Assembly (NCBI GenBank): GCA_049840735.1
Contig: JASGJN010000017.1
Span: forward strand, 544,001 to 608,000
Source of the DNA: Anaeromyxobacter sp.
Lineage (GTDB): Bacteria > Myxococcota > Myxococcia > Myxococcales > Anaeromyxobacteraceae
Reading direction: 5' to 3'
Length of the DNA: 64,000 nt
Shown here: in pieces, positions 685 through 16,387 of the stretch
Layout of the letters: every line of letters begins with the position of its first letter
Numbering within the stretch: position 1 is the stretch's first letter
Translations under genes and position numbers: made by a program
Notes under the pieces: generated by a model
Seen by the model: only the letters and a program-made list of their open reading frames with translations
What the model was told of the DNA's origin: nothing
Database searches by the model: none

Positions 685-725
685 CTGAGCACCGCCGAGT
701 GCCGATCGATGAACGCACGCGAAGA

Positions 726-889
726 TGTACAGGGTGGGGGCCCCTGCGAAGCAGGGGGAGGGGCGTAGCCCCTCGCCGCGGGGCAGCCGCGCGGAGCCGC
801 GAAGCGGTGAGCACGGCCCAGGGCCCCGCGCAGCAGGGGTGGGGCCCCGACGGCTCCGCCGGCGGGGCGGGGGCGCAGCCCCCGTTACA
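726..889. repeat. Multi-hairpin intergenic palindromic element
   Basis: Hairpins CCCCTGCGAAGCAGGGG, GGGGCGTAGCCCC, CCGCGAAGCGG, GGGGGCGCAGCCCCC packed between the usp and CBS genes. Confidence 0.55.
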
Positions 890-900
890 AGGAGGTGCCC

Positions 901-1341
901 ATGATCTCGGTCGGCGACGTCATGACGCGTGACCTGGTCACGGTGCAGGAGACCGACGACGTGGCGCTGGCCGAGTCGCTCCTCAAGATGGGCCGGTTCC
1001 GCCACCTGCCGGTGGTGCGCGACGGGCAGGTGGTGGGGCTGGTCACCGCGCGTGACATCCTGAGGGCCGGGCTGGCCGGCCGGCCCGCCGCGCGCGGCGT
1101 CCACCTGGCGGAGATCATGACCCGCGACCCGGTCACGGTCGCGCCGCGGGCCAGCCTGGTCTCGGCGGCCCGGACCATGCTGGACCAGAAGTACGGGTGC
1201 CTGCCGGTGTGCGAGCCCGGCGGAGACCTGGTGGGGATCCTGACCGAGGCCGACTTCGTCCGCTTCGCGGCCGACGTGGTCCACGATCTCGACCTGGTGT
1301 CCGAGGCGGTGCACGCCACCGCCAGCGGGCCCGCCGCGTAG
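901..1341 (+). CDS. CBS-domain pair protein
   Basis: VGDVMTRD..RHLPVV..VGLVT.RDI and IMTRDPVTV..GCLPV..VGILTE.D; AGGAGG RBS before ATG 901. Confidence 0.9.
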   Translation: MISVGDVMTRDLVTVQETDDVALAESLLKMGRFRHLPVVRDGQVVGLVTARDILRAGLAGRPAARGVHLAEIMTRDPVTVAPRASLVSAARTMLDQKYGCLPVCEPGGDLVGILTEADFVRFAADVVHDLDLVSEAVHATASGPAA

Positions 1342-1449
1342 CGGCTCCGCCACCCGCCAGGTCCCTCGAGGCACGCCCCTCCTGGCGCTGTGGGCCCGGC
1401 CGAGGCCCCGTCCGTTGACCCGCCGGTGCTTCCCCCCTATAGGGAGCGC

Positions 1450-2599
1450 ATGTCCGAGACCGTGTTCGCGGAGCTCAAGCGCTACGTGCTGTTCGAGGCG
1501 GGCGATGAGGCGGCGCTGCGCGCCTTCCACCCGCTGGCCGCCCCGCACTTCCAGCGCATCTCGGAGGTCTTCTACGACCGGATCCTGGGGCACGAGGAGG
1601 CCCGCAAGGCGCTGGTGGGCGGCGAGAGCCAGGTCGGCCACCTGAAGGTCACGCTGGTGGCCTGGATGGACAAGCTGCTGACCGGTCCCTGGGACGAGGC
1701 CTACTGGGACGAGCGCTACAAGATCGGCCGCGTCCACGTCCGCATCGCCCTGCCCCAGCACTACATGTTCGGGGCCATGAACGTGATCCGCGAGCAGCTC
1801 CTCCAGCTCGCCTGGCAGCACTTCCAGGCCGATCCGGAGGCGCTGCGGACGGCGCGCGAGGCGCTCAGCAAGAATCCTCGACCTGGAGCTGGCCATCATG
1901 CTCCACACCTACCGCGACGACCTGCTGGCCCAGCAGGCGCGGGTGGAGCGGCTCTCCACCTTCGGCCAGCTGGTGGGCTCGATCGGCCACGACCTGCGCA
2001 ACCCGCTGGGCGTGATCGAGACCTCGCTCTACATCCTGCGCGGCCGCGTGGGCGAGGACGAGCGGGCGCGCAAGCACGTGGACCGGATCGGCGAGCAGCT
2101 GGGCATCGCGAACGGGATCATCACCAACCTGCTCGACATGATCCGCAACCGGCCGCTGGTGAAGGAGCCGGTGGTCCTGGCCGAGGTGCTCGGCGGCGTG
2201 GCCGAGGTGGTGAAGCACCCGCCCGGCGTGGCCATCCGGCTGGAGGAGCTGGCGGCGCTGCCGGGCGTGGAGGGCGATCCGGTCCAGCTCCGCCAGGTCT
2301 TCGCCAACCTGATCGAGAACGCGGTCTTCGCCGCCTCGCCGGAGGGGACGGTCACCATCCGCGGCCTGCAGGCGGACGGCGCGGTGGCCGTGGCGGTGGA
2401 GGACACCGGTCCGGGGGTCGATCCGGCCACCCGGCGCCGCCTCTTCGAGCCGCTCATCACCACCAAGGACCGGGGAATCGGCCTGGGGCTGGCGCTGGTG
2501 AAGCGGATCGCCGAGCGCCACGGGGGTGGGGTCGATTATTCCGACAGGCCCGGCGGCGGCGCCTGCTTCACGGTCCGGCTGCCCGCGAAGGTGGAGTGA
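1450..2599 (+). CDS. Globin-coupled histidine kinase (AfGcHK-like); frameshift near 1873
   Basis: Protoglobin-type N-terminus ([37 protein letters not shown]) joins in another frame to [20 protein letters not shown]-box, EDTGPG and GIGLGL; one extra A in AAGAATC. Confidence 0.88.
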
Positions 2600-2604
2600 T
2601 CCGC

Positions 2605-3311
2605 ATGCGCCAGTACCTCATCGTGGACGACAACCTGGACTTCGCCGAGAACCTGGCCGAGATCCTGCGGGACGAGGGGGACGAGGTCACCATCGCCGGG
2701 GACGGCAAGGCGGCGCTGGAGCTGGTCCGCGGCCGCCGCTTCGACGCCATCCTCACCGACATGCGGATGCCGCTCATGGGCGGCGCCGAGCTGGTCCACG
2801 AGCTGCGCCGCGTGGACCCAGGCGCCGCGGCCATGGTCATCACCGCCCACGCCGGCGACCACGACCTGGAGTCGGCCCGCCGCGAGGGGCTGCTGGCCGT
2901 GCTGCAGAAGCCGGTCCCCCCGGTGCGCGTCCTGGAGCTCCTGGCCTCGGCCCGCCGCGACGGCCTGGTGGTGGTGATCGAGGACGACGACCGGATGAGC
3001 GACAACCTCTGCGAGGCGCTGCGCTCGCGCGGGTTCGCGGCCGTCACCGCCGCCTCGGTGCTGGAGACCGAGCGGCTCGGCCCGGTCCAGCCCTTCTGCG
3101 CGCTGGTGGACCTGCGCGTGCCCGGCGGCCCGGACGGCGAGGCCATGCGCCAGGTGGCGGCCAAGTACCCCGGCCTGCCCATGATCGTGGTGACGGCGCA
3201 CGACACCTCGCATCCGCCGCTGCCGCACCAGGGCTACTTCCGGAAGCCCTTCGACACCCCCGCCCTGCTCTCCGCGGTGGAGCGGCTCCACCAGTCGCGG
3301 GCCCCGGCGCG

Positions 3312-3315
<4 letters not shown>
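2605..3315 (+). CDS. Response regulator with two receiver domains
   Basis: [17 protein letters not shown] followed by [21 protein letters not shown]. Confidence 0.88.
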
Positions 3316-4434
<1,119 letters not shown>

Positions 4435-4500: not shown

Positions 4501-4528
4501 GTCACAACCCCTCGCGAGGGGGGTTCAA
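4501..4528 (+). promoter_or_regulatory. Putative ECF-type promoter GTCACAACC-N13-GTTCAA (copy 1)
   Basis: Same bipartite motif and spacing as 6673-6700 on the minus strand; function inferred. Confidence 0.55.
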
Positions 4529-4532
4529 AGAA

Positions 4533-4630
4533 TCAGACGGGCTGCACAGGCGACGCGGCCGTCCAATCATCCCGCGGGGGGGATGTCCCGGGGGCCCTGC
4601 CTGCTAGCGCGGGCAGGGCCTTCGTTTCTT
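4533..4630 (+). ncRNA. Candidate ~95-nt three-hairpin small RNA
   Basis: Follows the motif; stems GACGG/CCGTC (4536-4563), CATCCC/GGGATG (4568-4585), then a terminator hairpin and T-rich tail. Confidence 0.4.
4593..4630 (+). terminator. Intrinsic terminator
   Basis: GGCCCTGCCTGC-TAGC-GCGGGCAGGGCC followed by TTCGTTTCTT. Confidence 0.7.
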
Positions 4631-5199
4631 CAGCCGTCGCCGTGCCGCTCCTTCACCAGCGCCGCCAGCCGCGCCTTGATCCGCTCGTAGCGCTTGCGCA
4701 GCGTGGCCGGGTCGACCGGGGCGGTGTCGGTGGAGAGCACCTCGGCCACGTCCTCCCAGGCCAGCTGCTGGTCCAGCCGGAGCACCAGCAGCGTCTGGTC
4801 CTCGTCGGACAGCTCGGCCCGCAGCTCCTCCAGCTCGCGCCGCTGCCGCTCCACGCGCAGGCCGGTGCGGGTCCGCACCTCGTCGGCCAGCCGCGAGGCC
4901 TCGCTCGACTCCAGCCGCTGGTGCAGCCGCCGCCAGCCGTCGTCGCGCACCTTCATGGCCGCGCTCCAGGCCGCCTTGAAGGCCCAGGTGCGCGAGGTGG
5001 AGCGCCCCTCGAAGCGAGGGACGCCGCGCCAGACCTGCTCGGCGAAGAGCGAGAACGCGTCGGACGCGTCGGCGTCGTTGCCCAGCAGCTTGTGCAGGTA
5101 GCCCAGGATGCGGGGTCCGTGGCCACGGATAATCTCGGTGGCGGCCTCGCGATGCTGGCCCGCCGCCATCAGCTCCGTGACCCGCGCCTCGACGTCCAT
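4630..5199 (-). CDS. ECF-family RNA polymerase sigma factor
   Basis: Region 2 (DADASDAF..W.G..RFEGRSTSRTW) and region 4 (LSDEDQTLLVLR..LAWEDVAEVL..TLRKRYERIK). Confidence 0.85.
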   Translation of the reverse strand: MDVEARVTELMAAGQHREAATEIIRGHGPRILGYLHKLLGNDADASDAFSLFAEQVWRGVPRFEGRSTSRTWAFKAAWSAAMKVRDDGWRRLHQRLESSEASRLADEVRTRTGLRVERQRRELEELRAELSDEDQTLLVLRLDQQLAWEDVAEVLSTDTAPVDPATLRKRYERIKARLAALVKERHGDG

Positions 5200-5365
5200 C
5201 CCCGCAACCTACGACGGCCCCCACCCCGCGGTCGAGCGGGCGCGGGTGCGCGGGCACTTGCCCAGGTCTCGGGCAGGGTGTCGCCCGCTCCCGGGCAGTC
5301 GCGCGGCCGGGGTCGCCTGGATCCTCGACCAACCGGGAAAGACCCGGAGTTACCGCGGCTTGCGT

Positions 5366-6313
5366 TCAGCCTGGCGCCGTCGCCAGCAGCCCGGCCAGGG
5401 TGTCGGTGATGGGCAGGCCGGTCCGCTCCTCGACGAAGAGCCACTGACCGGATGGGTTCACTTCCAGGAAGAACCAGGCCCCGTCGTCGCGCCGGCGCAG
5501 GTCGACCGCCGCGTAGAGCAGCCCCAGCTCGCGGAGCAGCCCCCGCAGGCCTGCCGCCACCGCGGGGGGCAGCGTACAGGGGGCGACCTTGCAGTCGTCG
5601 TAGACCTCGCGGAAGTCGTGCGGGGACCGGGTGCTGCGCGGGTCGATCTCGGCGGCAAAGAGCGCCTCCCCGACGGCGGTCACCCGCACGTCCACGCCCG
5701 GCACCCACTCCTGGAAGATCACCGGCGCGAGCCGCAGGTCGTCCAGCCGGGCCAGGTCCTGGAGCCCCACGCGGCGGGTGGTCCAGTGGGTCTGGTTGGG
5801 GCGCAAGAGCTTCGCCACCGCCCTGCCCTCGCCCTGCTCGGCCAGGAACGCGCTGGCCGCCGCCGGGTCGCTGGTGATGAGCGTGGCGGGCACGCGCAGC
5901 CCGTGCCGCCCGGCGCGGGCCAGCTGGTTGGGCTTGTGGCCGGCGGCCTCGTCTCGCCAGGGCTGGTTCACGAGCAGCGCCCCGGGCTCGAGGGAAGCCA
6001 GGAGGCCCATCACCGCCTCGCCGGTCTGCGCGACGGCGTGCGCGGCGTCGGCGCTGGACAGCCCGGTCGCGGCCCGCAGCGGGAGCGGCCGGCGCCACCA
6101 GAGCGCGGTGACCTGGCGGGCGTCGAGCGCCTCCTGGCCGTCGACGCGCAGGGTGCGGGCCTCGCTCCCGCCACCGCCGTAGGAGAGGGCCAGCTGGCCG
6201 CGGCGAGGCAGGTCGGCCAGGTCGATCACCGCCGCCCGCGCCCCCCGGTGGCGCAGCGCAGCCAGCAGCGGCGCAGCGTGGCCGTCGCCCGCGTGGGTGA
6301 CGGCCAGGATCAC
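5366..6313 (-). CDS. ATP-grasp ligase, MvdC/MvdD (graspetide synthetase)/RimK-like
   Basis: WWRRP, HKPNQL..A...GLRVPATLITSDP, PVIFQEWV, DVRVTAVG, FLEVNPSGQWLFVE; GTG start overlaps upstream TGA. Confidence 0.85.
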   Translation of the reverse strand: MILAVTHAGDGHAAPLLAALRHRGARAAVIDLADLPRRGQLALSYGGGGSEARTLRVDGQEALDARQVTALWWRRPLPLRAATGLSSADAAHAVAQTGEAVMGLLASLEPGALLVNQPWRDEAAGHKPNQLARAGRHGLRVPATLITSDPAAASAFLAEQGEGRAVAKLLRPNQTHWTTRRVGLQDLARLDDLRLAPVIFQEWVPGVDVRVTAVGEALFAAEIDPRSTRSPHDFREVYDDCKVAPCTLPPAVAAGLRGLLRELGLLYAAVDLRRRDDGAWFFLEVNPSGQWLFVEERTGLPITDTLAGLLATAPG

Positions 6314-6648
6314 GTCGTGATGGTGCCGGGCGTGCCGCCGTCGGGCGGCAGGTGGGCGTGCTCCACCTCGGCGTGGAGCTTGGAGTACCAGTGCTGGAGC
6401 TCGTTCAGCGTCTCGATGTCGTCGGGGTCCAGGTGCCCGTCGCGGTGCTCGCTCTGGAGCAGGTCCAGCACCGGGGTGATCAGCTTGAGCAGCTGCCCCA
6501 CCAGCTGGGCGCGGTGCGCTGCGCCGGAGCCCGTGATCCCCTCCGGCGCACCCCAGGGACGCGAGACCCCCGTGGCCGAGACGCGCTGATAGAGCGCGCC
6601 GAAGGAGGTGACGTCCGTTCCCGTTTCCGTGTTGTTGTTCCTCGCCAT
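6310..6648 (-). CDS. 112-aa hypothetical protein, possible ATP-grasp substrate or precursor
   Basis: ATG 6648 with GGAGG RBS; GTGA overlap with the ATP-grasp gene. Confidence 0.6.
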   Translation of the reverse strand: MARNNNTETGTDVTSFGALYQRVSATGVSRPWGAPEGITGSGAAHRAQLVGQLLKLITPVLDLLQSEHRDGHLDPDDIETLNELQHWYSKLHAEVEHAHLPPDGGTPGTITT

Positions 6649-6672
6649 GACCTGGACCCTCCCGGTGCAACG

Positions 6673-6700
6673 TTGAACTCCGCTCGCCGCAGGTTGTGAC
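6673..6700 (-). promoter_or_regulatory. Putative ECF-type promoter GTCACAACC-N13-GTTCAA (copy 2)
   Basis: Ends about 25 bp upstream of ATG 6648; matches 4501-4528. Confidence 0.55.
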
Positions 6701-6730
6701 GGTCCCCTGATCGCAGGACGCGCAGCCCGG

Positions 6731-9628
6731 CTAGAGCCGGCGCTCGAGAGCCCGGGCCGCCTTGAGCAAGGGGAGGTCCTGGTCTGCCCCGGAGAAGAGC
6801 GCCAGGAGCCGATCCAGCTCGGCCCTCGCCTGCGCGCGCTCGCCGAGCCGCTGGTGGGCCTGGGCGGCGAGGAGGATGCTGCGCGGGTAGGCCCATGACC
6901 GCCAGAAGCCTCGGGGCGGCAGCCGCCGGAACCGGGCGATGGCCGCGAGCGTGGCCCCATCGTCCCCGGCCGCGGCGCTCACCTCGGCGGTGAGGTAGGC
7001 CGGCGAGAGGCCGCGGACGGGGAACGGGTCCTGTGCCTCGGCCTGGGCCAGCTTGGCCAGGGCCACCTGCAGGTCCCCGGCGCGCCAGGCCCGGAGCGCC
7101 TGGAACTGCAGGGCCTGGTTGGTGCCGGGCGGGATGGCCTTTCCCACCTCGGCGGCGGTCTTCTCGTCGCCCAGGAGCAGGAGCACGATGGCCAGGTCAG
7201 CGGCGTAGGCCGGATTGGAGCCGGCCAGGGTCACGGCGCTGCGAGCCACCCGCGTCGGATTCCCCGAGCCAGCGGCCAGCATGGCATCGCGGTAGAGCCC
7301 CCGCGAGGTGTCGCCGCGGGGCGCCTCGGCGCGGATGGCGTCGCCCAGCCGGAGGGCCTGCGCCAGCCGGCCCTGGCCAGCCAGCCCGGAGGCCACGTAG
7401 GACCGCCGCCAGGAGTTGTCCGGCGACAGCGCGATCTGCCGACGCGCCACGGCCTCGACCTCCCGGAAGTCACCGGCGAAGCTGGCCGCGTCCCGGAGCG
7501 CGTCGAGCGCGGCGTCCCCGCGGCGCTCATGCGCCCGGCGCGCGGCCTCCTGCGCCCCGGCCGCGTCACCCAGCCAGCAGTACGCAGACACCATCGCGCT
7601 GTCCAGCGGCGATCCAGCCTCGTCCATGCGCTGGACCAGGGCCCGCAGCGCCTGGCGCCGGTCGCTCCTGCCCAGCGCCTCCACCAGGATCAGGTAGTGC
7701 TCCTCCGTCGCCGGGAAGAGCCGGGTCAGCTTCTCCGCGAAGGGCTCCACCCCGGCCCAGTCCTGCTGATCGATGTGCACGGACACGAGCCCGGACAGCG
7801 CCTCCGCGTCGTCGGGATCGCGGGACAGCATCTCCTCGTAGAGGCGGCTGGCCTCGGCGGTCTTCCCCTCCAGCCGCGCCGCGAGGGCGCGCACCGCGAG
7901 GGCCTGCTGCACCGGGAGTCGCTCCGCGGCCCCCAGGGCGGCACGCAGGTGCGCCTGGTACATGTCGGGGGTGGCGCCCCGCGGGGAGCGGATGGCGGCC
8001 AGCTGGTAGTGGGCCAGGGCGAACCCCGGATCCTCGGCCAGCGCCCGCTCGAACGACGGGACGCACCGGTCGGCCGCCCCAGGCTGCGCCTGGACGCGCG
8101 CGATGCAGTCCACGCCCTCGTAGTAGAGCCGCGCCGCGTCCGGGCTGCGGGTGACGGCCTGCGCGACCGGGGTCCGGAGCCGGCGGTCGGCGCTGCGCTC
8201 CCGCAGCTCCTCGCGGATCCGATCGGAGAGCCAATCCACGGTCAGCGTCAGCTCCTTCATGTCCCCCAGGCGCTCGCGGGCCGTGAACAGGACCTTGCCG
8301 CTCTCCGCCTCGATGGCGCGAACCGCCAGCGTGGTGGCGCCATCCTCCTGCCAGGAGGACGGCACCAGCAGCACCGCCGCGCCGGCCAGCCGGGCCAGGT
8401 CGCGGCCGCGCCGCGCGTCCACGCCCGCCAGCTCGGCGAGGCCGGCCTCGCGCGCCACCACCGCCAGCCGGGTCTTCGGCACCACCCGCACGCGCGCCGA
8501 GGGCGAGAGCGCGACGTCCAGTAATCCCGGCACGGCCTGCAGCGCCGGGTCGGCGGCCCCGTTCTCGATCCCGGCCAGCACTACCTTCACCTGCTCGCCC
8601 GCGGGCGGCTCCCGGGTGACCGACAGCCACGCGGCCGTCCCCACCGCCCCCACGGCCACGGCCGTGAGCGCCGCCACCGACCAGCGACGCGCCCGCCCCT
8701 TTCGTGCGTTGCGCACCGCCAGCAGCGCGTCCCGCACCTCCCGCGCCGACGCTGGGCGCCTGGCCGGATCGCGCTCCAGGCAGCGCCGGACGAGCCGGCG
8801 GAAGGCAGCCGGGGCCAGCTTGCGGGCCAGCGCCGGCGTCTCCCCCGGCTCCAGCGCCTCGCTCCAGCCCTTCTCCACCAGGTACGGGATCTTCCCGGCC
8901 AGCGCCTGGTGCAGGATCACGCCGAAGGCGAACAGGTCGGTGCGCGCGTCGCTCCTGTCCCCCTCCCACTGCTCCGGCGCCATGTAGGCGGGGGTGCCGC
9001 CGTCGCTGGCGCCGTCGCGCCCGAACAGGTGGGCCAGGCCGAAGTCGAGCACCTTGACCGAGGCGTCCTCGCCCAGGTGCACGTTGCCCGGCGTGAGGTC
9101 GCGGTGGATCACGCCGGCGTCGTGCGCGTGGACCAGCGCGCGGGCCACCGCGATGGCCACCTCCAGCAGGTCGTCGAAGGGCAGCGGACCGTGGCGGAGC
9201 CGCTCGCCCAGCGACCGGCCGCGGAGCAGCTCGAACACGAGGTACGGGCCGGACGGGCCCTGACCGAAGTCGTGCAGGGTGACGATGTTGGGGTGGTTGA
9301 GGCGGGCCACCGCCTCGGCCTCGCGCTGCAGCCACTCGTGGCCGCGCGAGGCGATGCGGGTGCCCGGCTTGATGACCTTGAGGGCCACGGTGCGCCCCAG
9401 GTCGCGGTCCTCGGCCTCGTAGACCAGGCCGAAGCCGCCCCGGCCCAGCTCGCGCACCAGCTCGAAGCGGCCGATGTGGCCGCCGGGCCGGACCTCCGGC
9501 GACCACTCCTTGGCCGACGGCGCCTCCTGGGTCTTGACCAGCTCGAGCAGCAGCGCCGACAGCTGGGTCGAGAGGTGCTCGAACTCCGGCGGCTCGACCG
9601 GCGCGTCGCCGCTCTCTCCCTTGCGCAC
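6731..9628 (-). CDS. Membrane Ser/Thr protein kinase with TolB-N-like and TPR-like C-terminal region (paralog 3)
   Basis: LGRGGFG, VALK, HRDLTPGN, DFG, YMAPEQW, TM helix, helical repeats; start GTG inferred from RBS. Confidence 0.9.
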   Translation of the reverse strand: MRKGESGDAPVEPPEFEHLSTQLSALLLELVKTQEAPSAKEWSPEVRPGGHIGRFELVRELGRGGFGLVYEAEDRDLGRTVALKVIKPGTRIASRGHEWLQREAEAVARLNHPNIVTLHDFGQGPSGPYLVFELLRGRSLGERLRHGPLPFDDLLEVAIAVARALVHAHDAGVIHRDLTPGNVHLGEDASVKVLDFGLAHLFGRDGASDGGTPAYMAPEQWEGDRSDARTDLFAFGVILHQALAGKIPYLVEKGWSEALEPGETPALARKLAPAAFRRLVRRCLERDPARRPASAREVRDALLAVRNARKGRARRWSVAALTAVAVGAVGTAAWLSVTREPPAGEQVKVVLAGIENGAADPALQAVPGLLDVALSPSARVRVVPKTRLAVVAREAGLAELAGVDARRGRDLARLAGAAVLLVPSSWQEDGATTLAVRAIEAESGKVLFTARERLGDMKELTLTVDWLSDRIREELRERSADRRLRTPVAQAVTRSPDAARLYYEGVDCIARVQAQPGAADRCVPSFERALAEDPGFALAHYQLAAIRSPRGATPDMYQAHLRAALGAAERLPVQQALAVRALAARLEGKTAEASRLYEEMLSRDPDDAEALSGLVSVHIDQQDWAGVEPFAEKLTRLFPATEEHYLILVEALGRSDRRQALRALVQRMDEAGSPLDSAMVSAYCWLGDAAGAQEAARRAHERRGDAALDALRDAASFAGDFREVEAVARRQIALSPDNSWRRSYVASGLAGQGRLAQALRLGDAIRAEAPRGDTSRGLYRDAMLAAGSGNPTRVARSAVTLAGSNPAYAADLAIVLLLLGDEKTAAEVGKAIPPGTNQALQFQALRAWRAGDLQVALAKLAQAEAQDPFPVRGLSPAYLTAEVSAAAGDDGATLAAIARFRRLPPRGFWRSWAYPRSILLAAQAHQRLGERAQARAELDRLLALFSGADQDLPLLKAARALERRL

Positions 9629-9713
9629 CGGCTCCAACCTCGCCTCCGTGGATGTGCCGGTTCTACCAGAACCCGAGGCTCCGGTGCAGGGGATAACCCT
9701 GCCATGTGGTGGG

Positions 9714-12164
9714 CTACGGGCGCAGGGTGGCCCGCAGGGCCCGGGCCTCGCCCAGGCCGGGCAGGTCCGGGTCGGCTTTCGCCCAGAGCGAAAGCAAGCG
9801 CGAGAGGGTGGCGCGGGCCTCATCCGGCCGCCCCAGGGCCGCCTCGGCCCGGGCTTGGACGAGCAGCGCCCGGGGCCAGGTCCACGCCCGGTGATAGCCG
9901 CGCGGCGGCAGCCGCTGGTAGCGCTTCACCGCCGCCAGCGCCGCCCGGTGATCCCCGGCGGAGGAGGCCACCACGGCCGTGAGCCAGGCGGGCGGGAGCC
10001 CCTCCACCGGCCAGACGTCCTTCGCCTCCGCCACCGCCAGCGTGGCCAGCGCCCGGTCCATGTCGCCGGCCCGCCACTCGCGCAGCGCCTGGTCCTCCAG
10101 CGCGGTGATGGTGCCGGGCGGGATGGCGGCGGCGACGCGGTCCGCGGCGGCGTCGTCCCCCAGCAGCCGCAGGGGCAGGGCCAGCATGACGCAGTAGACC
10201 GGATCCACCTCGGCGCACTGCTCGGCCGGACGGCGCACCTGGCGCGCGTCCCAGCTGGCCGCGCTGATCAGCGCCTCCTGGAGGTTCCAGTTCGGCGCCG
10301 CGCCGCGGGCGGCCGCGGCCTCGTCGAGCGCCCGCTGCGCCTCGCGCACCCGCCCCTGCGCCGCGATCGACGTCGCTAGCGGCGCCGACGCGGCCAGCTC
10401 CGGGTGCTGGGCCAGGTAGCGCCGCCAGGTGGCCTCCACCTCCGCGAAGCGGCCGGCGCTGCTGAAGGCGGTCGCAAGCGTCAGCAGCGATCGCTCCCCG
10501 TTGGCAGCCACGGCGTCCTGCGCCGCCTCGATCCCGCGCCCGGGCTCGCCGCACCAGGCCGTCGCATTGACCACCACCGGCGCCAGCTCGGCCGAGGTGC
10601 GCAGCGGCCAGAGCCGCTCCAGCTCAGCCCGGACCTGGTCGAGCCGCGCCCGGCGACCCAGCGACTCCACCAGCGTGTCGCGCAGGTCGGCGCTGTTCCG
10701 GCCCAGGGCCAGCTGCTTGCGCACGAGCGGCTCGACGCCCTCCCAGTCATCGCGCTGCACGGCCAGCGCCGCCGCACCGTCCAGGGCGTCCAGATCGGCC
10801 GGATCCTCATCCAGCAGCGCCTGGTACTGCCGCCTGGCCTCGTCCACGCGCCCGGCCAGCCTCGCGTCGAGCGCCCGGGCCAGCTCGGCGTCGCGCGGCG
10901 ACATCCGAGGTGCAGCCGCCAGCGCCGCCTCCAGGTGCGGCGCCCACTTCTCCCGCTCGTGCCCCGGGATGGCCAGGGCCATCGCCAGGCGCAGGTGCGC
11001 CTGCGGCAGCCCCGGATCGAGCGCCAGCGCGGCCCGGAACCCTTCCGCGCAGCGGGCGCCGCCACCACCCCCTGCGCTCAGGCGCAGCCAGCAGTCCATC
11101 GCCTCCCGGTAGCGCTCCTCCGCGCCCGGCACGGTCGAGAGCGGCTCGGGGCGCAGCCGCCACCAGGCCGCCCACCCGAGGGCCGCCAGCGCCGCCAGCA
11201 GCAGCAGCCCCGCGCCGGCGCGCACGCCGACGCGCCCATGCCAGCGACGCAGCCGCTCCAGCGTCTGCCGGACCTGGGCCGCGCTGCCGGGCCGCCGCGC
11301 CGGATCGCGCTCCACCAGGCGGCGCACCAGCCCGCGCAGCGCCGGCTGCGCCGCGCCCAGCGGCAGCTCCGGCGTGGGCCCGGGCTGCAGGACCTCGCGG
11401 TCCTCCCCTTCCGCGCGGTACGGGGGACGCCCGCAGAGCGCCTGGTGGAGGATGGCGCCGAGCGCGAACAGGTCGGTGCGGCCGTCCCCCGGCTCGCCGC
11501 GCCACTGCTCCGGCGCCATGTAGGGCCCGGTGCCGCCGCTGCTGGCGGCGGTGCGGCCGAGCAGGCTGGAGAGGCCGAAGTCGAGCACCTTGACGCGCCC
11601 GTCCTGGCCCAGGTGGACGTTCCCAGGCGTGAGATCGCGGTGGGTGACGCCGGCGGCGTGGGCGTGCTCCAGCGCCCGGGCCACGCCCGCGCCGACCCGC
11701 AGCACCTCATCGCGCGAGAGGGGCCCGCGCCGCAGCCGCTCGGCCAGGGTCTCGCCGCGCAGCAGCTCCAGCACCAGGTAGAGGCCGCCCGGCCCCTGCC
11801 CCACGTCGAAGAGCGTGACGATGCCCGGGTGGTTGAGGCGCGCCACCGCCACCGCCTCCCGCCGCAGCCACTCCGAGCCGTGCGCCGCCACGCGCGCGCC
11901 GGGCCGGATCAGCTTGATGGCCACGGCCCGCCCCAGCTCCAGGTCGCGCGCCTCCCAGACAACGCCGAACCCGCCCCGCCCCAGCTCGCGCACCAGCTCG
12001 AACCGCCCCAGGCGCGCGCCGGGCGCCATGCCCGACCACTGCTCCGGGACCGCCCGCGCCTCGGTGCGCACCATCTCCGCCAACAGGTCGGTGAGCTGCC
12101 GGGAGAAGCGCTCCGCGTCCGGCTGGTCCCGGGGCGCGACGCTGGGCGTGCCCTCCCGCTTCAC
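9714..12164 (-). CDS. Membrane Ser/Thr protein kinase with TPR-like region (paralog 2)
   Basis: Same kinase motifs; GTG start overlaps TGA of paralog 1. Confidence 0.9.
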   Translation of the reverse strand: MKREGTPSVAPRDQPDAERFSRQLTDLLAEMVRTEARAVPEQWSGMAPGARLGRFELVRELGRGGFGVVWEARDLELGRAVAIKLIRPGARVAAHGSEWLRREAVAVARLNHPGIVTLFDVGQGPGGLYLVLELLRGETLAERLRRGPLSRDEVLRVGAGVARALEHAHAAGVTHRDLTPGNVHLGQDGRVKVLDFGLSSLLGRTAASSGGTGPYMAPEQWRGEPGDGRTDLFALGAILHQALCGRPPYRAEGEDREVLQPGPTPELPLGAAQPALRGLVRRLVERDPARRPGSAAQVRQTLERLRRWHGRVGVRAGAGLLLLAALAALGWAAWWRLRPEPLSTVPGAEERYREAMDCWLRLSAGGGGGARCAEGFRAALALDPGLPQAHLRLAMALAIPGHEREKWAPHLEAALAAAPRMSPRDAELARALDARLAGRVDEARRQYQALLDEDPADLDALDGAAALAVQRDDWEGVEPLVRKQLALGRNSADLRDTLVESLGRRARLDQVRAELERLWPLRTSAELAPVVVNATAWCGEPGRGIEAAQDAVAANGERSLLTLATAFSSAGRFAEVEATWRRYLAQHPELAASAPLATSIAAQGRVREAQRALDEAAAARGAAPNWNLQEALISAASWDARQVRRPAEQCAEVDPVYCVMLALPLRLLGDDAAADRVAAAIPPGTITALEDQALREWRAGDMDRALATLAVAEAKDVWPVEGLPPAWLTAVVASSAGDHRAALAAVKRYQRLPPRGYHRAWTWPRALLVQARAEAALGRPDEARATLSRLLSLWAKADPDLPGLGEARALRATLRP

Positions 12165-14623
12165 CGCGCGCCTCCCCGCTCCAGCGCCGCCTCGAGCGCG
12201 TCCAGCTCGCGAAGCAGCGGCAGCCCGGGATCCGCGCGGGCCCAGAGCGCCCGCAGCTGCGCCGCGGTCCCGCGCGCCGCCTGGGGCTGGCCCGTGGCCG
12301 CCTCGGCGCGGGCCCGCAGCAGCAGGGCCCGCGGGTAGGCCCAGCAGCGCCACATCCCGCGGGACGGGAGCTCCAGGAAGCGCCGCGCGGCGGCCAGGGC
12401 GGTGCGGTGTTCGCCCGCCGCGGAGGCCACCTCGGCCAGGAGGTAGGCCGGGGAGACGCCGTGGACCGGCCGCGAGTCGCGCTCCTCCGCCGCGGCCAGC
12501 ATCGCCAGCGCCAGATTGACGTCTCCTTCGCGCCAGGCCAGCAGGGCCTGGAGCTCCTGCTCGACGACCGAGCCCGGCGGGGCGGCGGCCCCCAGGTGAC
12601 GCGCGCCCTCCACGTCGCCCAGGAGCCCGAGCGGCAGCGCCAGATCGACGCCCCACAGCGGGTCCACGGCCGCGGTCTGCTCGGCGGACCGACGGACCCG
12701 CCGCGGGTCCCAGCTCACCACCGTCAGCATCGCGTCGCGGCTGTGGCGATCGGCGGGCTCGCGGACCGCGTCCGCCACCACCTGGGAGGTGGCCAGCGCG
12801 TCGGCGAGCCGCCCCTGGGTGGCCTGCGCGATGGCGACCAGCGTCCCCTTCCATGGGTCCTCTGGATGCGCGGCCGCGTCGCGCCGGGCGACGTCCTCCA
12901 TCTCGGCGTACAGCCCGGCGGTGCCCAGCGCCATCCGCAGCGCGGTCAGCCCCGCGTCGCCGTGGCTGACCACCGCCTGGCGCCCCACCGCCACCGCCTG
13001 CAGCGGATCGTACCAGACCAGCGCCCGGACCTGCCCCACGGCGCGCCCCACCGTGTCCGGCGTGGCCCCCAGCTCCGCCACCAGCGCCCGGAGCTCCTCG
13101 TGCCTCCCCAGCCGGCCCAGCGCCTCGGTCAGCGCCTGCAGGGCGTCGTCGTCGCTGGGCCTCAGCTGCAGCCGCTTGCGGGACAGCCGGGCCACCCCGA
13201 CCCAGTCGCCGCGCCGCTGCGCCACCTCGTCGGCCGACGCCACCGCCTCGGCGTCGTCCGGCGCCAGGGCCAGGGCCTCGCCGTAGAGCTGCGCCGCCTC
13301 GTCCCAGCGCTCGTGGAGCATGGCCGCGCGGGCCTTGAGCAGCCGCGCCTCCAGGGGTGGCAGCCGGTCGGCGGTCGCCAGCGCGGTCGCGAGGAGCGGG
13401 CCCCACAGGTCCTCGGACGCACCCTCGAGCGAGCCGATCACCAGCCGCTGGTAGGCGGCCAGCCCGAAGCCAGGGTCGTGCGCCAGCGCCCGCTCGAAGG
13501 CCGGGATGCAGGCCTCCGAGGCGCCAGCGATCCCGGGCGCGCGGCGCAGGCAGTCCATCCCCTCCTCGTACGCGCGGGCGGCCTCCGGGATGACCGTGGG
13601 GGGCGGCGGCCGCGCGGTCCACCAGCGGAGGCCGGCGCCGCCGGCCAGCGCACAGGCAGCGAGGGCGGAGGCGAAGAGCCAGCGCCGGAGCCGGCGGCCG
13701 CGGGCCCCGAGCCGCGCCAGCGCCTCCACCACGTCGGCCGCGCTGGCCGGGCGCCGGTCCGGCTCGCGCTCGAGCAGCCGCCGCACCAGCGAGCGCAGCG
13801 CGCCCGGCGCCGCGGCGCGCGGCAGCGCCGGGGTGCGGCCCTGCTCCAGCACCTCGCGGCGTCCGGAGCGGGCCTCGTAAGGCGTCCGGCCGCCCAGCGC
13901 CTCGAAGAGGATGACGCCCAGCGCGAACAGGTCGGTCCGCGCGTCGCCCGCCTCGGCCCGCCACTGCTCCGGGGCCATGTACGCAGCGGTGCCGCCGTCG
14001 CTCGCCCCCTCGCGGCCGAACAGGTGCGAGAGGCCGAAGTCGAGCACCTTGACCTGCCCGTCCTCGCCCAGGTGCACGTTGCCCGGGGTGAGGTCGCGGT
14101 GGAGGACGCCGGCGGCGTGCGCGTGCCGCAGCGCCGCCGCCACGGCCGCGCCGAGCCGCGCCGCCTCCGCCGCCTGCAGCGGCCCCCGCTTCAGCCGCTC
14201 CGCCAGCGTCTCGCCGCGCAGCAGCTCGAACACCAGGTGGACCCCGCCCGGCCCCTGCCCCACGTCGTGCAGCGTGACGATGCCCGGGTGGTTGAGCCGC
14301 GCCACCGCCTCCGCCTCGCGCCGCAGCGAGTCCGGGCCGTGCGCGCCGAGCCGGGCGCCGGGGCGGACCACCTTGAGCGCCACGGCGCGCCCCAGCTCCG
14401 CGTCGCGGGCCTCCCAGACCACGCCGAAGCCGCCCCGCCCCAGCTCGCGGACCAGCTCGAAGCGGCCCACGCGCGCGCCGGGCTCGAGCCCCGACCACGC
14501 CTCCGGGACGGCCCGCTCCTCGGTGCGGACCAGCTCGGCCAGCAGGTCGGTGAGCTGGCGCGAGCGCGGGTCCAGCGCGACGCCGTCCGGACCAGGCTCG
14601 CCGTTCTGGACCTGCGTCAGCAC
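12161..14623 (-). CDS. Membrane Ser/Thr protein kinase with TPR-like region (paralog 1)
   Basis: LGRGGFG, HRDLTPGN, DFG, YMAPEQW, TM helix, TPR-like region. Confidence 0.9.
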   Translation of the reverse strand: MLTQVQNGEPGPDGVALDPRSRQLTDLLAELVRTEERAVPEAWSGLEPGARVGRFELVRELGRGGFGVVWEARDAELGRAVALKVVRPGARLGAHGPDSLRREAEAVARLNHPGIVTLHDVGQGPGGVHLVFELLRGETLAERLKRGPLQAAEAARLGAAVAAALRHAHAAGVLHRDLTPGNVHLGEDGQVKVLDFGLSHLFGREGASDGGTAAYMAPEQWRAEAGDARTDLFALGVILFEALGGRTPYEARSGRREVLEQGRTPALPRAAAPGALRSLVRRLLEREPDRRPASAADVVEALARLGARGRRLRRWLFASALAACALAGGAGLRWWTARPPPPTVIPEAARAYEEGMDCLRRAPGIAGASEACIPAFERALAHDPGFGLAAYQRLVIGSLEGASEDLWGPLLATALATADRLPPLEARLLKARAAMLHERWDEAAQLYGEALALAPDDAEAVASADEVAQRRGDWVGVARLSRKRLQLRPSDDDALQALTEALGRLGRHEELRALVAELGATPDTVGRAVGQVRALVWYDPLQAVAVGRQAVVSHGDAGLTALRMALGTAGLYAEMEDVARRDAAAHPEDPWKGTLVAIAQATQGRLADALATSQVVADAVREPADRHSRDAMLTVVSWDPRRVRRSAEQTAAVDPLWGVDLALPLGLLGDVEGARHLGAAAPPGSVVEQELQALLAWREGDVNLALAMLAAAEERDSRPVHGVSPAYLLAEVASAAGEHRTALAAARRFLELPSRGMWRCWAYPRALLLRARAEAATGQPQAARGTAAQLRALWARADPGLPLLRELDALEAALERGGAR

Positions 14624-14780
14624 TGCCTTGCTCCGGTGCTCCCGCCCGGGGACGTGTCTACCAGATTGACGGACAGCCGGTCAGCCGTGGGGAGGCCGGG
14701 GCGGTTCGCCGCTCTCCCGACTTGTTCGGGGATGACCTGGCAAACGGACGTTTCAACGCCGGGTGGTGTGGTTCCCCCGC

Positions 14781-16223
14781 CTACTCCGGCGCGCCGGCCT
14801 TCTCCTCGTCGTCCAGCCCGCCGCGGCGCGCGTCGCGCCCGCCGGCGGCGTACTCCTTCAGCCGGTACTGGATCTTGCGCACGCTGATCCCGAGGATCTC
14901 GGCCGCGCGCGAGGTGGAGCCGCCCACCATCTCGAGCGTGCGCAGGATGGCCTCGCGCTCGATCTCGTAGAGCGTGGCGCCCGGGATGAGCGCGCCCGGG
15001 GCCCGCTCGCGGGGCCGCGGCCCGCGCAGCGTGGGCGGCAGGTCGTCGGCGGTCAGCTCGGCCGCCTTGGCCAGCACCACCGCCCGCTCGATCACGTTCT
15101 CCAGCTCGCGGACGTTGCCCGGCCAGTCGTGGGAGAGGAGCGCGTTGAGCGTGCCGGGGGCCAGCCCGCGGATCTCCTTGCCGTAGGAGCGGGCGTACTT
15201 GTCGATGAAGTGCGAGACCAGCGCCGGGATGTCCCCCTTGCGCTGCCGCAGCGGCGGCAGCGTGACCGCCACCACGTTGAGCCGGTAGTAGAGGTCCTCG
15301 CGGAACTTGCCGCTCTTCACCTCGGCGGAGAGGTCGCGGTTGGTGGCCGCCACCAGGCGCACGTCCACCTTGATGGTCTGGGTGCCCCCCACCCGCTCGA
15401 ACTCCTTCTGCTGCAGCACGCGCAGCAGCTTGATTTGCAGCGCCGGGGAGATGTCGCCGATCTCGTCCAGGAAGAGCGTGCCGCCGTCCGCCAGCTCGAA
15501 GCGCCCCTCCTTGCGCCCGATGGCGCCGGTGAAGGAGCCCTTCTCGTGACCGAACAGCTCGGACTCGAGCAGCGTCTCGGAGAGCGCGGCGCAGTTCACC
15601 TTGATGAACGGCTTGCCGGAGCGGGGCGACTCCTCGTGCAGCGCCTGGGCGATCAGCTCCTTGCCGGTGCCGGACTCGCCCAGGATGAGGACGGTGGCGC
15701 GGGTGGGCGCCGCCCGCTTGACCACCTCGTAGACCGCCTGCAGCTCGGGCGCGTCGCCGACGATGTTGTGGAACCGGTACCGCTCGCGCACCCGCTCGCG
15801 CAGGTTGGCCGTGTCGCGCTGGAGCCGGAGCTTCTCGAGCGCCTTCTCGAGGATCACCAGCACCGCGTTCACGTCGAGCGGCTTGACCAGGTAGTTCTCG
15901 GCGCCGGCCCGCATGGCCTCGACGGCGGCCTCCACGCTGGCGAAGGCGGTCATCATCACGAAGACCGCGTCCGAGCCGGCCTCGCGCGCCCGCTTGAGCA
16001 GCGTGATGCCGTCCAGGCGCGGCATGCGCACGTCGGCCAGCACCACGGCCGGCGCGAACCCGGGGATGAGGGCCAGCGCCTCCTCGCCGTCCGCGGCCTC
16101 GGCCAGCTCGTACCCCTCCTCCGAGAGGATGGTCCGCAGCGCGACGCGAGCGTTCTGCTCGTCGTCCACCACGAGGATCCGCTCCTTGCTCCCTGGGCGG
16201 AGGGTTGAGGTCGGGCTGTTCAT
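14781..16223 (-). CDS. Sigma-54-dependent response regulator (NtrC/AtoC family)
   Basis: Receiver domain, [14 protein letters not shown] (GAFTGA-like), [15 protein letters not shown], Fis-type HTH. Confidence 0.95.
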
Positions 16224-16387
16224 GCGACTCCTGGTGACGCAAACGCTGCGGGACCCGCAGTTTATGCATGATCTCGGTCCAGAAATCCAGCCCTTCTGGC
16301 ACCGCAAACCCGCGCGCCCACGCGGGAATGTCAAAGCGGTCGCGGGGGCTGCGGCCGCGCGCGCGCAACCGGCCTAGCCGACGAGGA

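What the first reader, a model, noticed from the sequence alone, without database searches (positions are those of the whole stretch)
4501..14623. Candidate system: receptor kinase trio, ECF sigma, ATP-grasp peptide module and sRNA
Seen: six co-oriented genes (three TM Ser/Thr kinases, a 112-aa ORF, an MvdC/D-like ATP-grasp, an ECF sigma with no evident anti-sigma gene) and one bipartite motif present twice. Known: some ECF sigmas are activated by neighbouring Ser/Thr kinases (Vibrio EcfP/PknT, Xanthomonas EcfK/PknS). Inferred: the kinases sense extracytoplasmic ligands and activate the sigma, which transcribes the ORF/ATP-grasp (and perhaps itself) plus a small RNA.
Basis: partly seen in the sequence, partly recalled or inferred. 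Interest (0 to 1): 0.78.

Follow-up and report, generated by a model that had tools for sequence, protein, structure and literature searches.

The report
Inverted ring-peptide receptor-kinase signalling cassette
In Anaeromyxobacter-type soil bacteria, a membrane kinase's outer sensor domain, a tiny variable protein and a peptide-cyclising enzyme vary together as one block between close strains, which suggests a strain-specific ring-peptide signal that is likely read by the kinase and likely relayed to a neighbouring sigma factor and its predicted small RNA.

Summary
Observation confirmed: six co-oriented genes, and a motif found only twice in the 6.67-Mb genome. The locus is conserved. A kinase precedes the ATP-grasp in 21/22 genus loci and 21/21 fetched loci from other genera, and a sigma of this family is near in 15/22 and 10/21. 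(1) The 112-aa ORF looks like a graspetide precursor of inverted order: an N-terminal [TS]-x4-[DE] ring motif (17/22 loci, 46/60 remote homologues, 8/8 held-out; only this spacing is enriched) lies before an RP[WF]G recognition-type motif. I found such follower precursors in print only as engineered constructs. (2) Among three near-identical strains, kinase TPR ectodomain, ORF and ATP-grasp form one hypervariable block (40-92% DNA) between 94-98% flanks, as in agr peptide signalling. (3) The promoter-plus-sRNA unit sits next to all 13 closest sigmas, in both orientations. Against: no exporter or peptidase in the locus; no ECF43-type phosphosite; kinases carry HRDLT for HRDLK; the sigma has its own housekeeping-type promoter; the pre-ORF motif is absent in genus relatives. 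Nothing is shown experimentally. No earlier scan note matched.

The parts
12161..14623 (-). Kinase K1: N-terminal helix, Hanks kinase (HRDLT), weak TM segment, TPR ectodomain; lacks the ~150-aa TolB-like segment of K3; extra copy seen only in this genome
9714..12164 (-). Kinase K2: same architecture as K1, 4-nt overlap with K1 stop; kinase domains 67-75% identical among K1-K3, ectodomains 42-46%
6731..9628 (-). Kinase K3, the conserved orthologue: N-terminal helix, kinase (HRDLT), TM, TolB-like segment, TPR ectodomain (the hypervariable part in relatives)
6673..6700 (-). Predicted ECF promoter copy 2 (GTCACA-N16-GTTCAA), 25 nt before the ORF start; absent in genus relatives, paralleled in one clade of another genus
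6310..6648 (-). 112-aa predicted graspetide precursor of inverted (core-follower) order
6613..6630 (-). Predicted ring core Thr7-x4-Asp12
6550..6561 (-). RPWG, predicted synthetase-recognition motif (RPFG in ThfA, PMC13003496)
6352..6531 (-). Two-helix hairpin (residues 40-69, 75-99); encoded as a separate ORF with a PFFL motif in three relatives
5366..6313 (-). MvdC/D-like ATP-grasp (graspetide synthetase, Makarova branch 7 / RODEO group 30 by homologues), catalytic motifs present
5206..5235 (-). Predicted housekeeping-type promoter of the sigma gene, ending 6 nt before the ATG (likely leaderless mRNA)
4630..5199 (-). 189-aa ECF sigma factor of a kinase-associated family found in 84/91 family genomes; S/T-rich sigma2-sigma4 linker
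4501..4528 (+). Predicted ECF promoter copy 1, conserved beside all 13 closest sigmas
4534..4632 (+). Predicted ~97-nt small RNA: variable 5' hairpin, conserved G-run, intrinsic terminator (4589-4624 plus U tail) abutting the sigma stop

Best explanation
The kinase's outer TPR domain, the small protein and the ATP-grasp vary together as one block between close strains, and this block likely encodes a strain-specific signal: the ATP-grasp is predicted to close a Thr7-Asp12 ester ring at the small protein's N-terminus, the released ring peptide would bind the kinase's TPR domain, and the kinase would then activate the neighbouring ECF sigma, which is predicted to transcribe the small RNA and, in this genome, the precursor operon. 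Shown by sequence: gene order and its conservation; the N-terminal [TS]-x4-[DE] motif lying before RP[WF]G; the mosaic block; the promoter-sRNA unit tied to the sigma. Inferred with good odds (~0.7): ring formation with a follower-type precursor; sigma-dependent sRNA. Inferred with moderate odds (~0.5): kinase control of the sigma, probably through conserved linker Ser/Thr (S98, S102, T110, T112) or S50 rather than the ECF43 site. Inferred with the weakest odds: that the peptide leaves the cytoplasm (by unlinked export or lysis) and is the ligand. K1 and K2 would be extra receptors for other peptide types.
For: Linkage: kinase upstream of the ATP-grasp in 21/22 genus loci (L027 is cut) and 21/21 fetched loci of other genera; a small ORF before the grasp in 21/21 readable genus loci plus the window. 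Ring motif: 17/22 loci (shuffle mean 6.1), 46/60 remote homologues (17.3), 39/52 after removing those with similar N-termini (14.8), 0/2000 shuffles; of 8 spacings only x4 stands out. Held-out 8/8 (shuffle 2.4). The motif is tandemly repeated 2-4 times in several homologues. P[FWL]G in 37/60 (shuffle 6.2), after the core in 29/31. RPFG is the recognition motif of ThfA and still works when moved behind the core (PMC13003496, passages). Four interstitial residues is the smallest loop ThfB closes (PMC12291112, passage). A sister grasp clade has the same T-x4-D at the C-terminus in 4/5 loci. Grasp K127, K168, D208, R210, D233, R235 and N286 are invariant in 22/22. Mosaic: G014/G006/G002 are 94-100% identical in kinase cytoplasmic part, TolB-like segment, sigma and flanking proteins, but 61-75% in the TPR, 41-79% in the ORF and 78-93% in the grasp; DNA identity G014-G006 drops from 97% to 56-84% near kinase residue 495 and returns to 98% at the sigma. 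Sigma-kinase link: 6 of 7 kinases with the N-terminal helix, among 28 in the genome, lie beside a family sigma, and 4/4 family sigmas have one (helix judged by eye). Linker S/T at 98, 102, 110, 112 is 81-82/82 conserved; EcfK is activated through linker threonines (PMC13147305, passages). sRNA: one copy in each of the 13 closest-sigma genomes and no strong hit in 79 others (12 were training sequences, G034 was held out); 6/9 terminator pairs change on both sides, 0/500 shuffles.
Against: No transporter, peptidase or signal peptide in the locus, so the route of the peptide to a periplasmic sensor is unexplained. The mosaic rests on three strains, and joint variation also fits a toxin-immunity or any co-inherited fast-evolving block. 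T-x4-D could be a kinase target motif, since every readable locus has a kinase. 5/22 genus ORFs and 6/20 other-genus ORFs lack the N-terminal motif, and the Lys-rich ORFs lack RP[WF]G and the hairpin. The metal-binding Glu284 of the grasp is below 90% conserved. All three kinases have Thr for the catalytic-loop Lys (28/120 homologues), which may lower activity. The sigma keeps DxxD, and S50 is Gly in 2 of 3 paralogues of this genome. G034 has sigma plus sRNA without adjacent kinase or grasp. The pre-ORF promoter is absent in 21/21 genus relatives. Shuffle tests treat related sequences as independent, and the -10/sigma covariation is a single phylogenetic split. No expression or biochemical data.
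Confidence: 0.42

Rival explanations
1. One reading: the kinases sense an outside cue unrelated to the peptide, phosphorylate the sigma, and the cyclised peptide (for example a protease inhibitor or antagonistic metabolite) and the sRNA are only outputs.
For: Kinase-sigma adjacency; motif before the precursor here and in 5/5 loci of one g25 clade; no exporter is needed for an intracellular product; extra motif copies precede cas3, an HsdR-N-like gene and DUF3892 in three strains.
Against: Does not explain why kinase-peptide-grasp linkage (42/43 non-own loci) is tighter than sigma linkage (25/43), nor why the TPR domain diverges together with peptide and enzyme. The pre-ORF motif is absent in the genus relatives.
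Confidence: 0.25
2. The small protein is an intracellular substrate of the kinase: the conserved Thr/Ser is phosphorylated, competing with or replacing ring closure, and the modified protein (helical or Lys-rich, possibly DNA-binding) is the effector.
For: A kinase is present in every readable locus; the product has no export route; Lys-rich variants resemble histone-like tails (resemblance recalled).
Against: The fixed Asp/Glu at +5, the RP[WF]G/PFFL recognition motifs and the C-terminal T-x4-D of the sister clade are graspetide hallmarks. The cytoplasmic kinase domain stays 96-98% identical while the peptide changes; only the ectodomain co-varies.
Confidence: 0.15
3. Two modules that often sit side by side: sigma plus sRNA is one unit regulated in some other way, and kinase-peptide-grasp is another that signals to a different target.
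For: Sigma plus sRNA alone in G034; the sigma has its own promoter; grasp loci with no family sigma detected nearby (7/22 and 11/21, some cut by contig or locus ends); no ECF43 phosphosite; K-to-T kinases.
Against: Family sigmas recur beside these kinases in three different positions and in all 4 paralogous loci of this genome; no anti-sigma gene in the loci read.
Confidence: 0.13
4. The conventional reading: the ORF is a leader-core precursor modified near its C-terminus, or not a substrate at all (branch-7 enzymes acting on other proteins).
For: PMC8939145 (section 6) could predict no precursor for branch 7 and proposed other cellular substrates; the window ORF has a D/T-rich tail; weak enrichment of donor-acceptor pairs after the motif at spacings 3 and 4 (p 0.038 and 0.056 of 8 tests).
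Against: No donor residue is conserved after the motif, while D12 is at least 90% conserved; the short g25 and L013 precursors end 6-17 residues after P[WF]G with no conserved donor-acceptor pair.
Confidence: 0.05

Closest known systems
Graspetides (microviridin MvdC/D, plesiocin PsnB, fuscimiditide ThfA/ThfB); Makarova branch 7, RODEO group 30
   Same: MvdD-type ATP-grasp with catalytic motifs; adjacent coupled small ORF; Thr/Ser donor and Asp/Glu acceptor; RP[FW]G or PFFL recognition motif; repeated cores. Homologues are listed in branch 7, and the L013/L033 ORF is listed as an automatic precursor call in group 30.
   Different: Core lies N-terminal of the recognition motif (follower order); a helical hairpin or Lys-rich tail follows; in three loci the PFFL-hairpin is a separate gene; neighbours are a receptor kinase and a sigma, not transporters or peptidases. 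Branch 7 was published as 'no precursor predicted', and most group-30 precursor calls in the rows read look like YscW/YbaY-type proteins (family label judged by eye).
Engineered leader-to-follower fuscimiditide (PMC13003496)
   Same: Core first, RPFG recognition motif afterwards; shown to be modified by the synthetase.
   Different: That construct is artificial and the paper calls the arrangement unnatural; this would be a natural counterpart with a single 6-residue ring.
ECF43 EcfP/PknT and EcfK/PknS; ECF283 (kinase-associated, S/T-rich linker)
   Same: ECF sigma without an anti-sigma beside a single-pass kinase with extracytoplasmic TPRs; conserved linker Ser/Thr as in EcfK T104-S110 and the ECF283 description.
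   Different: No PF07638 match, DxxD retained, different promoter (GTCACA / GTTC versus GTC / CAG for ECF43 and CCTT / AG for ECF283); kinases have HRDLT; linked to a peptide-modifying cassette and an sRNA.
Staphylococcal agr and enterococcal fsr peptide signalling (recalled, not from a call)
   Same: Works like it: variable precursor, ring-forming enzyme and receptor sensor domain in one contiguous hypervariable block; downstream transcription regulator; regulatory RNA as output; positive feedback on the precursor gene in some loci.
   Different: No component resembles agr parts by family: ATP-grasp instead of AgrB, Ser/Thr kinase with TPR instead of a histidine kinase, ECF sigma instead of a response regulator; diderm host; no exporter found.
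ECF-dependent sRNAs (sigmaE MicA/RybB, recalled) and Myxococcus DdvS defence regulon (PMC6061681, PMC11506125; search listing only)
   Same: An ECF promoter drives a stand-alone sRNA; scattered copies of the promoter precede cas3 or restriction-like genes in three strains.
   Different: No Rfam match; G-rich core; no conserved target found; DdvS is controlled by an anti-sigma; this genome's cas3 lacks the motif upstream.

Membership tests
Graspetide biosynthetic cluster | MvdC/D-type ATP-grasp with pre-grasp domain and catalytic residues | tested here: met
   PF21068 29.5 bits > 27 cut-off; best PDB hits are graspetide synthetases, E about 1e-27; motifs present
Graspetide biosynthetic cluster | Adjacent precursor with conserved donor (S/T/K) and acceptor (D/E) pattern | tested here: met
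   [TS]x4[DE] in 17/22, 46/60 and 8/8 held-out
Graspetide biosynthetic cluster | N-terminal leader followed by C-terminal core | tested here: not met
   Core precedes P[FWL]G in 29/31; order is inverted
Graspetide biosynthetic cluster | Side-chain ester or amide actually formed | not testable with these tools
   needs co-expression and mass spectrometry
MvdC / MvdD / SAV_5884 equivalogs | Score above NCBIfam cut-off | tested here: not met
   146.6 < 425, 131.8 < 475, 232.4 < 350 bits
ECF sigma factor (sigma70 group 4) | sigma2 plus sigma4 only, TIGR02937 above cut-off | tested here: met
   50.1 > 42.9 bits over residues 18-178 of 189
ECF43 (EcfP/EcfK) | PF07638 Sigma70_ECF match | tested here: not met
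   only PF04542 passes; the same library does detect PF07638 in another protein
ECF43 (EcfP/EcfK) | DAED replaced by S/T-rich phosphosite | tested here: not met
   D44 80/82, D47 82/82, S46 12/82
ECF43 (EcfP/EcfK) | Adjacent single-pass kinase with extracytoplasmic TPR and no anti-sigma | tested here: met
Other kinase-associated ECF groups (59, 61, 62, 217, 267, 283) | Group HMM assignment | not testable with these tools
   group models not held; described taxa or promoters differ; 'Anaeromyxobacter' has 0 hits in the supplement as held, which is cut
Kinase-activated sigma | Direct phosphorylation by the neighbour | not testable with these tools
   only conserved candidate sites were found
Active Hanks kinase | VAIK Lys, alphaC Glu, HRD Asp, DFG | tested here: met
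   K84, E103, D177, N182, D195-F196-G197 invariant in 69 rows
Active Hanks kinase | Catalytic-loop Lys (HRDLK) | tested here: not met
   HRDLT in all three; 28/120 homologues T, 89 K
agr-type peptide quorum sensing | AgrB, histidine kinase and response regulator homologues | tested here: not met
   no such Pfam/NCBIfam match in the six genes
agr-type peptide quorum sensing | Contiguous hypervariable block of enzyme, peptide and receptor sensor domain | tested here: met
   three strains; agr feature recalled
agr-type peptide quorum sensing | Peptide exported and sensed | tested here: inconclusive
   no exporter or signal peptide in the locus; unlinked export not searched
Known Rfam RNA family | Score above gathering threshold | tested here: not met
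   best 22.4 bits versus 45, E 0.79
Stand-alone bacterial sRNA | Conserved promoter, covarying terminator, no conserved ORF | tested here: met
   absence of a conserved ORF judged by eye on the alignments
Stand-alone bacterial sRNA | Transcript detected | tested here: inconclusive
   only two weak metatranscriptome contig sets

The most novel reading that the evidence does not exclude
Anaeromyxobacteraceae have built an agr-like self/non-self peptide language from unrelated parts: a naturally inverted (core-follower, sometimes split) graspetide precursor gives a six-residue lactone pheromone, an exchangeable TPR ectodomain on a Ser/Thr receptor kinase reads it, and an unclassified ECF sigma converts it into a G-rich small RNA, feedback on the precursor and, in some strains, CRISPR or restriction genes. 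This genome's three divergent receptors would eavesdrop on other strains' peptides. It would be the first graspetide with a signalling role that my searches could find, and a peptide-ligand receptor Ser/Thr kinase-to-sigma pathway.
Probability: 0.3. Interest if true: 0.92.

Novelty: new variant of a known kind. Interest (0 to 1): 0.78.

Why it matters
The biological role of most graspetides and the ligands of sigma-activating Ser/Thr kinases are both open questions. This locus offers a matched candidate ligand, receptor and read-out (a small RNA with a defined promoter), with natural type variants in cultured strains, so both become directly testable. Even if signalling is wrong, the inverted and split precursors would explain why an orphan synthetase branch had 'no precursor', show that leader-first mining rules miss a class, and give a natural follower-type cyclase that leaves the N-terminus free.

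Tried and rejected
Complex prediction of ATP-grasp with the ORF gave no verdict (score 0.02, mark 0.32) and is not used either way; no kinase-sigma complex was folded. Public RNA runs: two metatranscriptome contig sets holding 6-8% of the words; a few contigs overlap the locus but cannot show ends or strand. Rfam: chance ctRNA hit only. RNAalifold on the MAFFT alignment gave a poor consensus; the terminator was tested with a hand-set helix chosen from the alignment, which leans towards the structure. sRNA targets in the locus: the seed pairs well with the sigma start region here and in G003 but not in G014, G006 or G008, and that region is probably untranscribed; rejected. S46 as an ECF43-like phosphosite: rejected (12/82). 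ORF as an anti-sigma: no PDB fold match at E <= 0.001, no usable Atlas hit, and closest sigmas occur with Lys-rich ORFs lacking the hairpin. A general defence regulon: motif before cas3 in G014 and G002 and before an HsdR-N-like gene in G006, but not before this genome's cas3, and other sites precede unrelated genes; kept only as a lead. The GTCACAACC-N13-GTTCAA matches in G007, G222 and G134 overlap coding sequence ahead of ferredoxin-like genes and are likely chance. PADLOC hits of K3 are generic kinase matches. Sigma70 consensus scan found nothing. Earlier scan notes: one unrelated hit in four look-ups. Literature searches found no description of this system or of a natural follower or split graspetide; two papers I wanted (an amidoligase survey and a 2021 graspetide classification) were not held, and subscription papers and cut supplements may bear on novelty. 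Rows dropped: P0292 and P0301 (long, repeat-type) from the 62 representative hits; L194 (ORF unresolved) from the 21 other-genus loci; L012, L023 and L027 from the second tree.
Full report
Observation. The six genes are present on the minus strand as described: kinases K1 12161-14623, K2 9714-12164 and K3 6731-9628, a 112-aa ORF 6310-6648, an ATP-grasp 5366-6313 and a 189-aa sigma 4630-5199. The kinases carry Pkinase and TPR domains and one hydrophobic segment each, weak in K1. The ATP-grasp passes the MvdD pre-grasp Pfam cut-off but not the MvdC, MvdD or SAV_5884 equivalog cut-offs, and the sigma passes TIGR02937. The motif TCACAACC-N13-GTTCAA occurs twice in the 6.67-Mb genome, both copies here. 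The plus-strand copy is followed by a folded ~97-nt segment and a terminator that abuts the sigma stop, with no Rfam family. Named homologues place the genome among Anaeromyxobacter or its family.

Conservation. The ATP-grasp has close homologues in 19/36 genus and 45/91 family genomes. A K3-type kinase lies upstream in 21/22 genus loci, the exception being cut by a contig end, and in 21/21 loci from other genera; these were 21 of the 36 matches outside the genus. A family sigma follows the grasp in 11/22 genus loci and, by coordinates, precedes the kinase in four more; it is within about 4 kb in 10/21 other-genus loci. The sigma family is in 84/91 family genomes and 19/159 other genomes of the order (one of those, G180, is unpublished and counted only in this tally). 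The long clade-A loci read have at most one such kinase; K1 and K2 are extra copies whose kinase domains are 67-75% and ectodomains 42-46% identical to each other and K3. So kinase-peptide-grasp is the tightest unit, and the trio is local.

Promoter and small RNA. Beside each of the 13 closest sigmas (69-74% identity, plus the window) lies GTCACA-N15/16-GTTC[CA]A, then a variable hairpin, a G-run and a terminator, convergent on the sigma in eight genomes and in tandem in five. A sequence model built from 12 of them finds one copy in each of these 13 genomes, including held-out G034, and only weak partial hits (E > 0.002) in 5 of the other 79. Six of nine terminator pairs change on both sides, above all 500 shuffles and all slid controls (helix chosen from the alignment). 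Ten of 17 loci of the sister sigmas (55-63%) carry a similar G-rich unit with GTC instead of GTT at -10, matching Asn, Cys or His instead of Ser at residue 79; this is one phylogenetic split. GTCACA-N14-CGTTC has no site in five genomes lacking the closest sigma and 1-4 sites in 9 of 10 genomes that have it. I read the motif as the cognate promoter. The copy before the ORF is absent from all 21 readable genus relatives, yet GTCAC[AT]-N15-CGTCCA precedes the precursor in 5/5 loci of one clade of another genus. The sigma gene has its own TCGAC-N17/18-TAnnnT element 6-7 nt before the ATG in 7/7 loci, suggesting a leaderless housekeeping-type transcript. No conserved sRNA target was found in the locus, and RNA runs were uninformative.

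Kinase and sigma. The sigma is not ECF43: there is no PF07638 match, DxxD is kept and S46 is in 12/82 close homologues. It has lost the Glu of the canonical QE, has Ser at 50 (78/82 and 38/38, but Gly in two of three paralogues here) and near-invariant linker Ser/Thr at 98, 102, 110 and 112. EcfK is activated through such linker residues (PMC13147305, passages), and ECF283 is described with an S/T-rich linker but another promoter (PMC7826278 supplement passages). Of 28 kinases in this genome seven share an N-terminal helix by eye; six lie beside a family sigma, and all four family sigmas have one. Against a simple model: all three kinases have Thr for the catalytic-loop Lys, a trait of 28/120 homologues, though Lys84, Glu103, HRD-Asp and DFG are invariant, and G034 has sigma and sRNA with no kinase or grasp beside them. 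Kinase control is plausible, not shown.

The small protein. Every readable genus locus has a small ORF before the grasp, mostly overlapping its start by 4 nt, 45-171 aa long and of helical, Cys-rich or Lys-rich type. A profile search of 1.84 billion representatives gave 62 hits, of which 60 short ones were analysed; in 301 phylum genomes the hairpin family was found only within the family. The window protein folds as a disordered N-terminus plus two helices with no PDB match. Across all types the first 20 residues hold [TS]-x4-[DE]: 17/22 loci, 46/60 hits and 39/52 hits with dissimilar N-termini, against shuffle means of 6.1, 17.3 and 14.8; among spacings 1-8 only 4 stands out, with spacing 1 at p 0.02 in the loci. 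Several homologues repeat the motif two to four times. P[FWL]G occurs in 37/60 (shuffle 6.2) and lies after the core in 29/31. RPFG is the recognition motif of the fuscimiditide precursor and still works when the leader is moved behind the core, an arrangement the authors engineered (PMC13003496, passages); four interstitial residues is the smallest ring ThfB closed (PMC12291112, passage). In loci fetched afterwards, 8/8 ORFs of the same supported synthetase clade have the N-terminal motif (shuffle 2.4) and 14/20 overall; ORFs were picked by hand from candidates. In the tree, 23 of 25 members of a 98/94-supported clade have the N-terminal x4 motif, while a separate 100/100 clade has T-x4-D at the C-terminus in 4/5 loci; the root is only a midpoint, so the order of events is open. 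Three loci split the precursor into a core peptide and a separate PFFL-plus-hairpin ORF. Key grasp residues are invariant in 22/22, except Glu284. Published surveys hold these enzymes: branch 7, for which no precursor could be predicted (PMC8939145, section 6 and supplement rows), and RODEO group 30, where the L013/L033 ORF is listed with no core assignment in the rows read (PMC13097080, section 7 and supplement parts 370-371 of a cut file). Searches showed no natural follower or split graspetide in the held library.

The variable block. G014, G006 and G002 are 94-100% identical in the kinase's cytoplasmic part, its TolB-like segment, the sigma and three flanking proteins, but 61-75% in the TPR ectodomain, 41-79% in the ORF and 78-93% in the grasp. 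DNA identity between G014 and G006 is 96-98% to about kinase residue 490, 56-84% over the TPR region, 40-60% over the ORF, 75-92% over the grasp and 98% again at the sigma. The most divergent strain is so in all three parts at once. This is the pattern I recall for agr, where enzyme, peptide and sensor domain are exchanged together; one search added nothing to cite. It rests on three strains and could also reflect a toxin-immunity-like or otherwise co-inherited block.

Mechanism and verdict. I commit to a ring-peptide signalling cassette (0.42): the grasp binds RPWG and the hairpin and closes Thr7-Asp12; the ring peptide reaches the TPR domain; the kinase activates the sigma; the sigma makes the sRNA and here also the precursor operon. 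The weakest step is export, since the locus has no transporter, peptidase or signal peptide. The inverted precursor and the sigma-dependent sRNA are each more likely (about 0.7) than the whole chain. It works like agr and like ECF43 but is a member of neither; it is a graspetide cluster by enzyme and donor-acceptor pattern but fails the leader-first rule. Novelty: new variant of a known kind; interest 0.78. One search found no paper joining graspetides to receptor or sigma signalling among the ten listed of 39, search 58 none on Anaeromyxobacter ECF sRNAs, and the scan's own notes held nothing related.

Noticed in passing
L070:1501 (G014), L074:1501 (G002), L071:1501 (G006), L110:1501 (G014), L172:989 (G002): The closest-sigma promoter motif lies just upstream of type I-E cas3 in two strains, an HsdR-N-like gene in a third, and DUF3892 genes in two; a possible defence arm of the regulon. 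This genome's cas3 lacks it, though a weaker site precedes cas8e at C13:465712.
   Followed up: partly
L185, L186, L191 (G158, G116, G210), upstream of the ATP-grasp: Precursor split into a core peptide and a separate PFFL-plus-helical-hairpin ORF, a candidate natural leader in trans.
   Followed up: partly
L191, L192, L193, L195: Sister ATP-grasp clade, also behind a K3-type kinase, whose small ORFs end in T-x4-D (conventional order).
   Followed up: partly
L016, L018, L023, L024, L031, L020: Lys/Arg-rich 45-76-aa ORFs with the N-terminal ring motif but no hairpin; G008 and G030 also carry a second locus with a hairpin-type ORF.
   Followed up: partly
G000 C22:152431, C22:154239, C25:47837, C26:90811: GTCAC[AG]-N16-GTC[TC] sites after the paralogous sigmas and before glycosidase-like and sugar-binding-like genes, suggesting a carbohydrate regulon for a paralogue.
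   Followed up: no
L126, L161, L164 (G006, G002, G014): A 94-aa membrane protein of no Pfam family preceded by the closest-sigma promoter motif in three strains; a likely conserved regulon member.
   Followed up: partly
L075, L077, L162 (G015, G010, G005): A large secreted-type protein of no Pfam family preceded by GTCACA-N16-GTTCAA, the same spacing as the window's two copies.
   Followed up: partly
L053, L056, L059 (G128, G183, G174): Pairs of family sigmas in opposite orientation, in L053 and L056 with a G-rich sRNA unit carrying two GGGG-loop hairpins nearby.
   Followed up: no
window 259-4434 (+) and 14781-16334 (-): Flanking signalling genes: universal stress protein, CBS protein, globin-like sensor/histidine kinase (apparently frameshifted near 1850-1900), receiver proteins, hybrid histidine kinase, and an NtrC-type activator; the same flanks surround the locus in several relatives.
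   Followed up: no
window 14650-14680 and 9660-9680 (-): A similar CTGGTAGA element lies upstream of both K1 and K3, suggesting separate promoters for K1-K2 and for K3.
   Followed up: no
L016/P0146 (G008) and L019 (G013): Apparent in-frame kinase-to-grasp and ORF-to-grasp fusions, probably single-base assembly errors.
   Followed up: no
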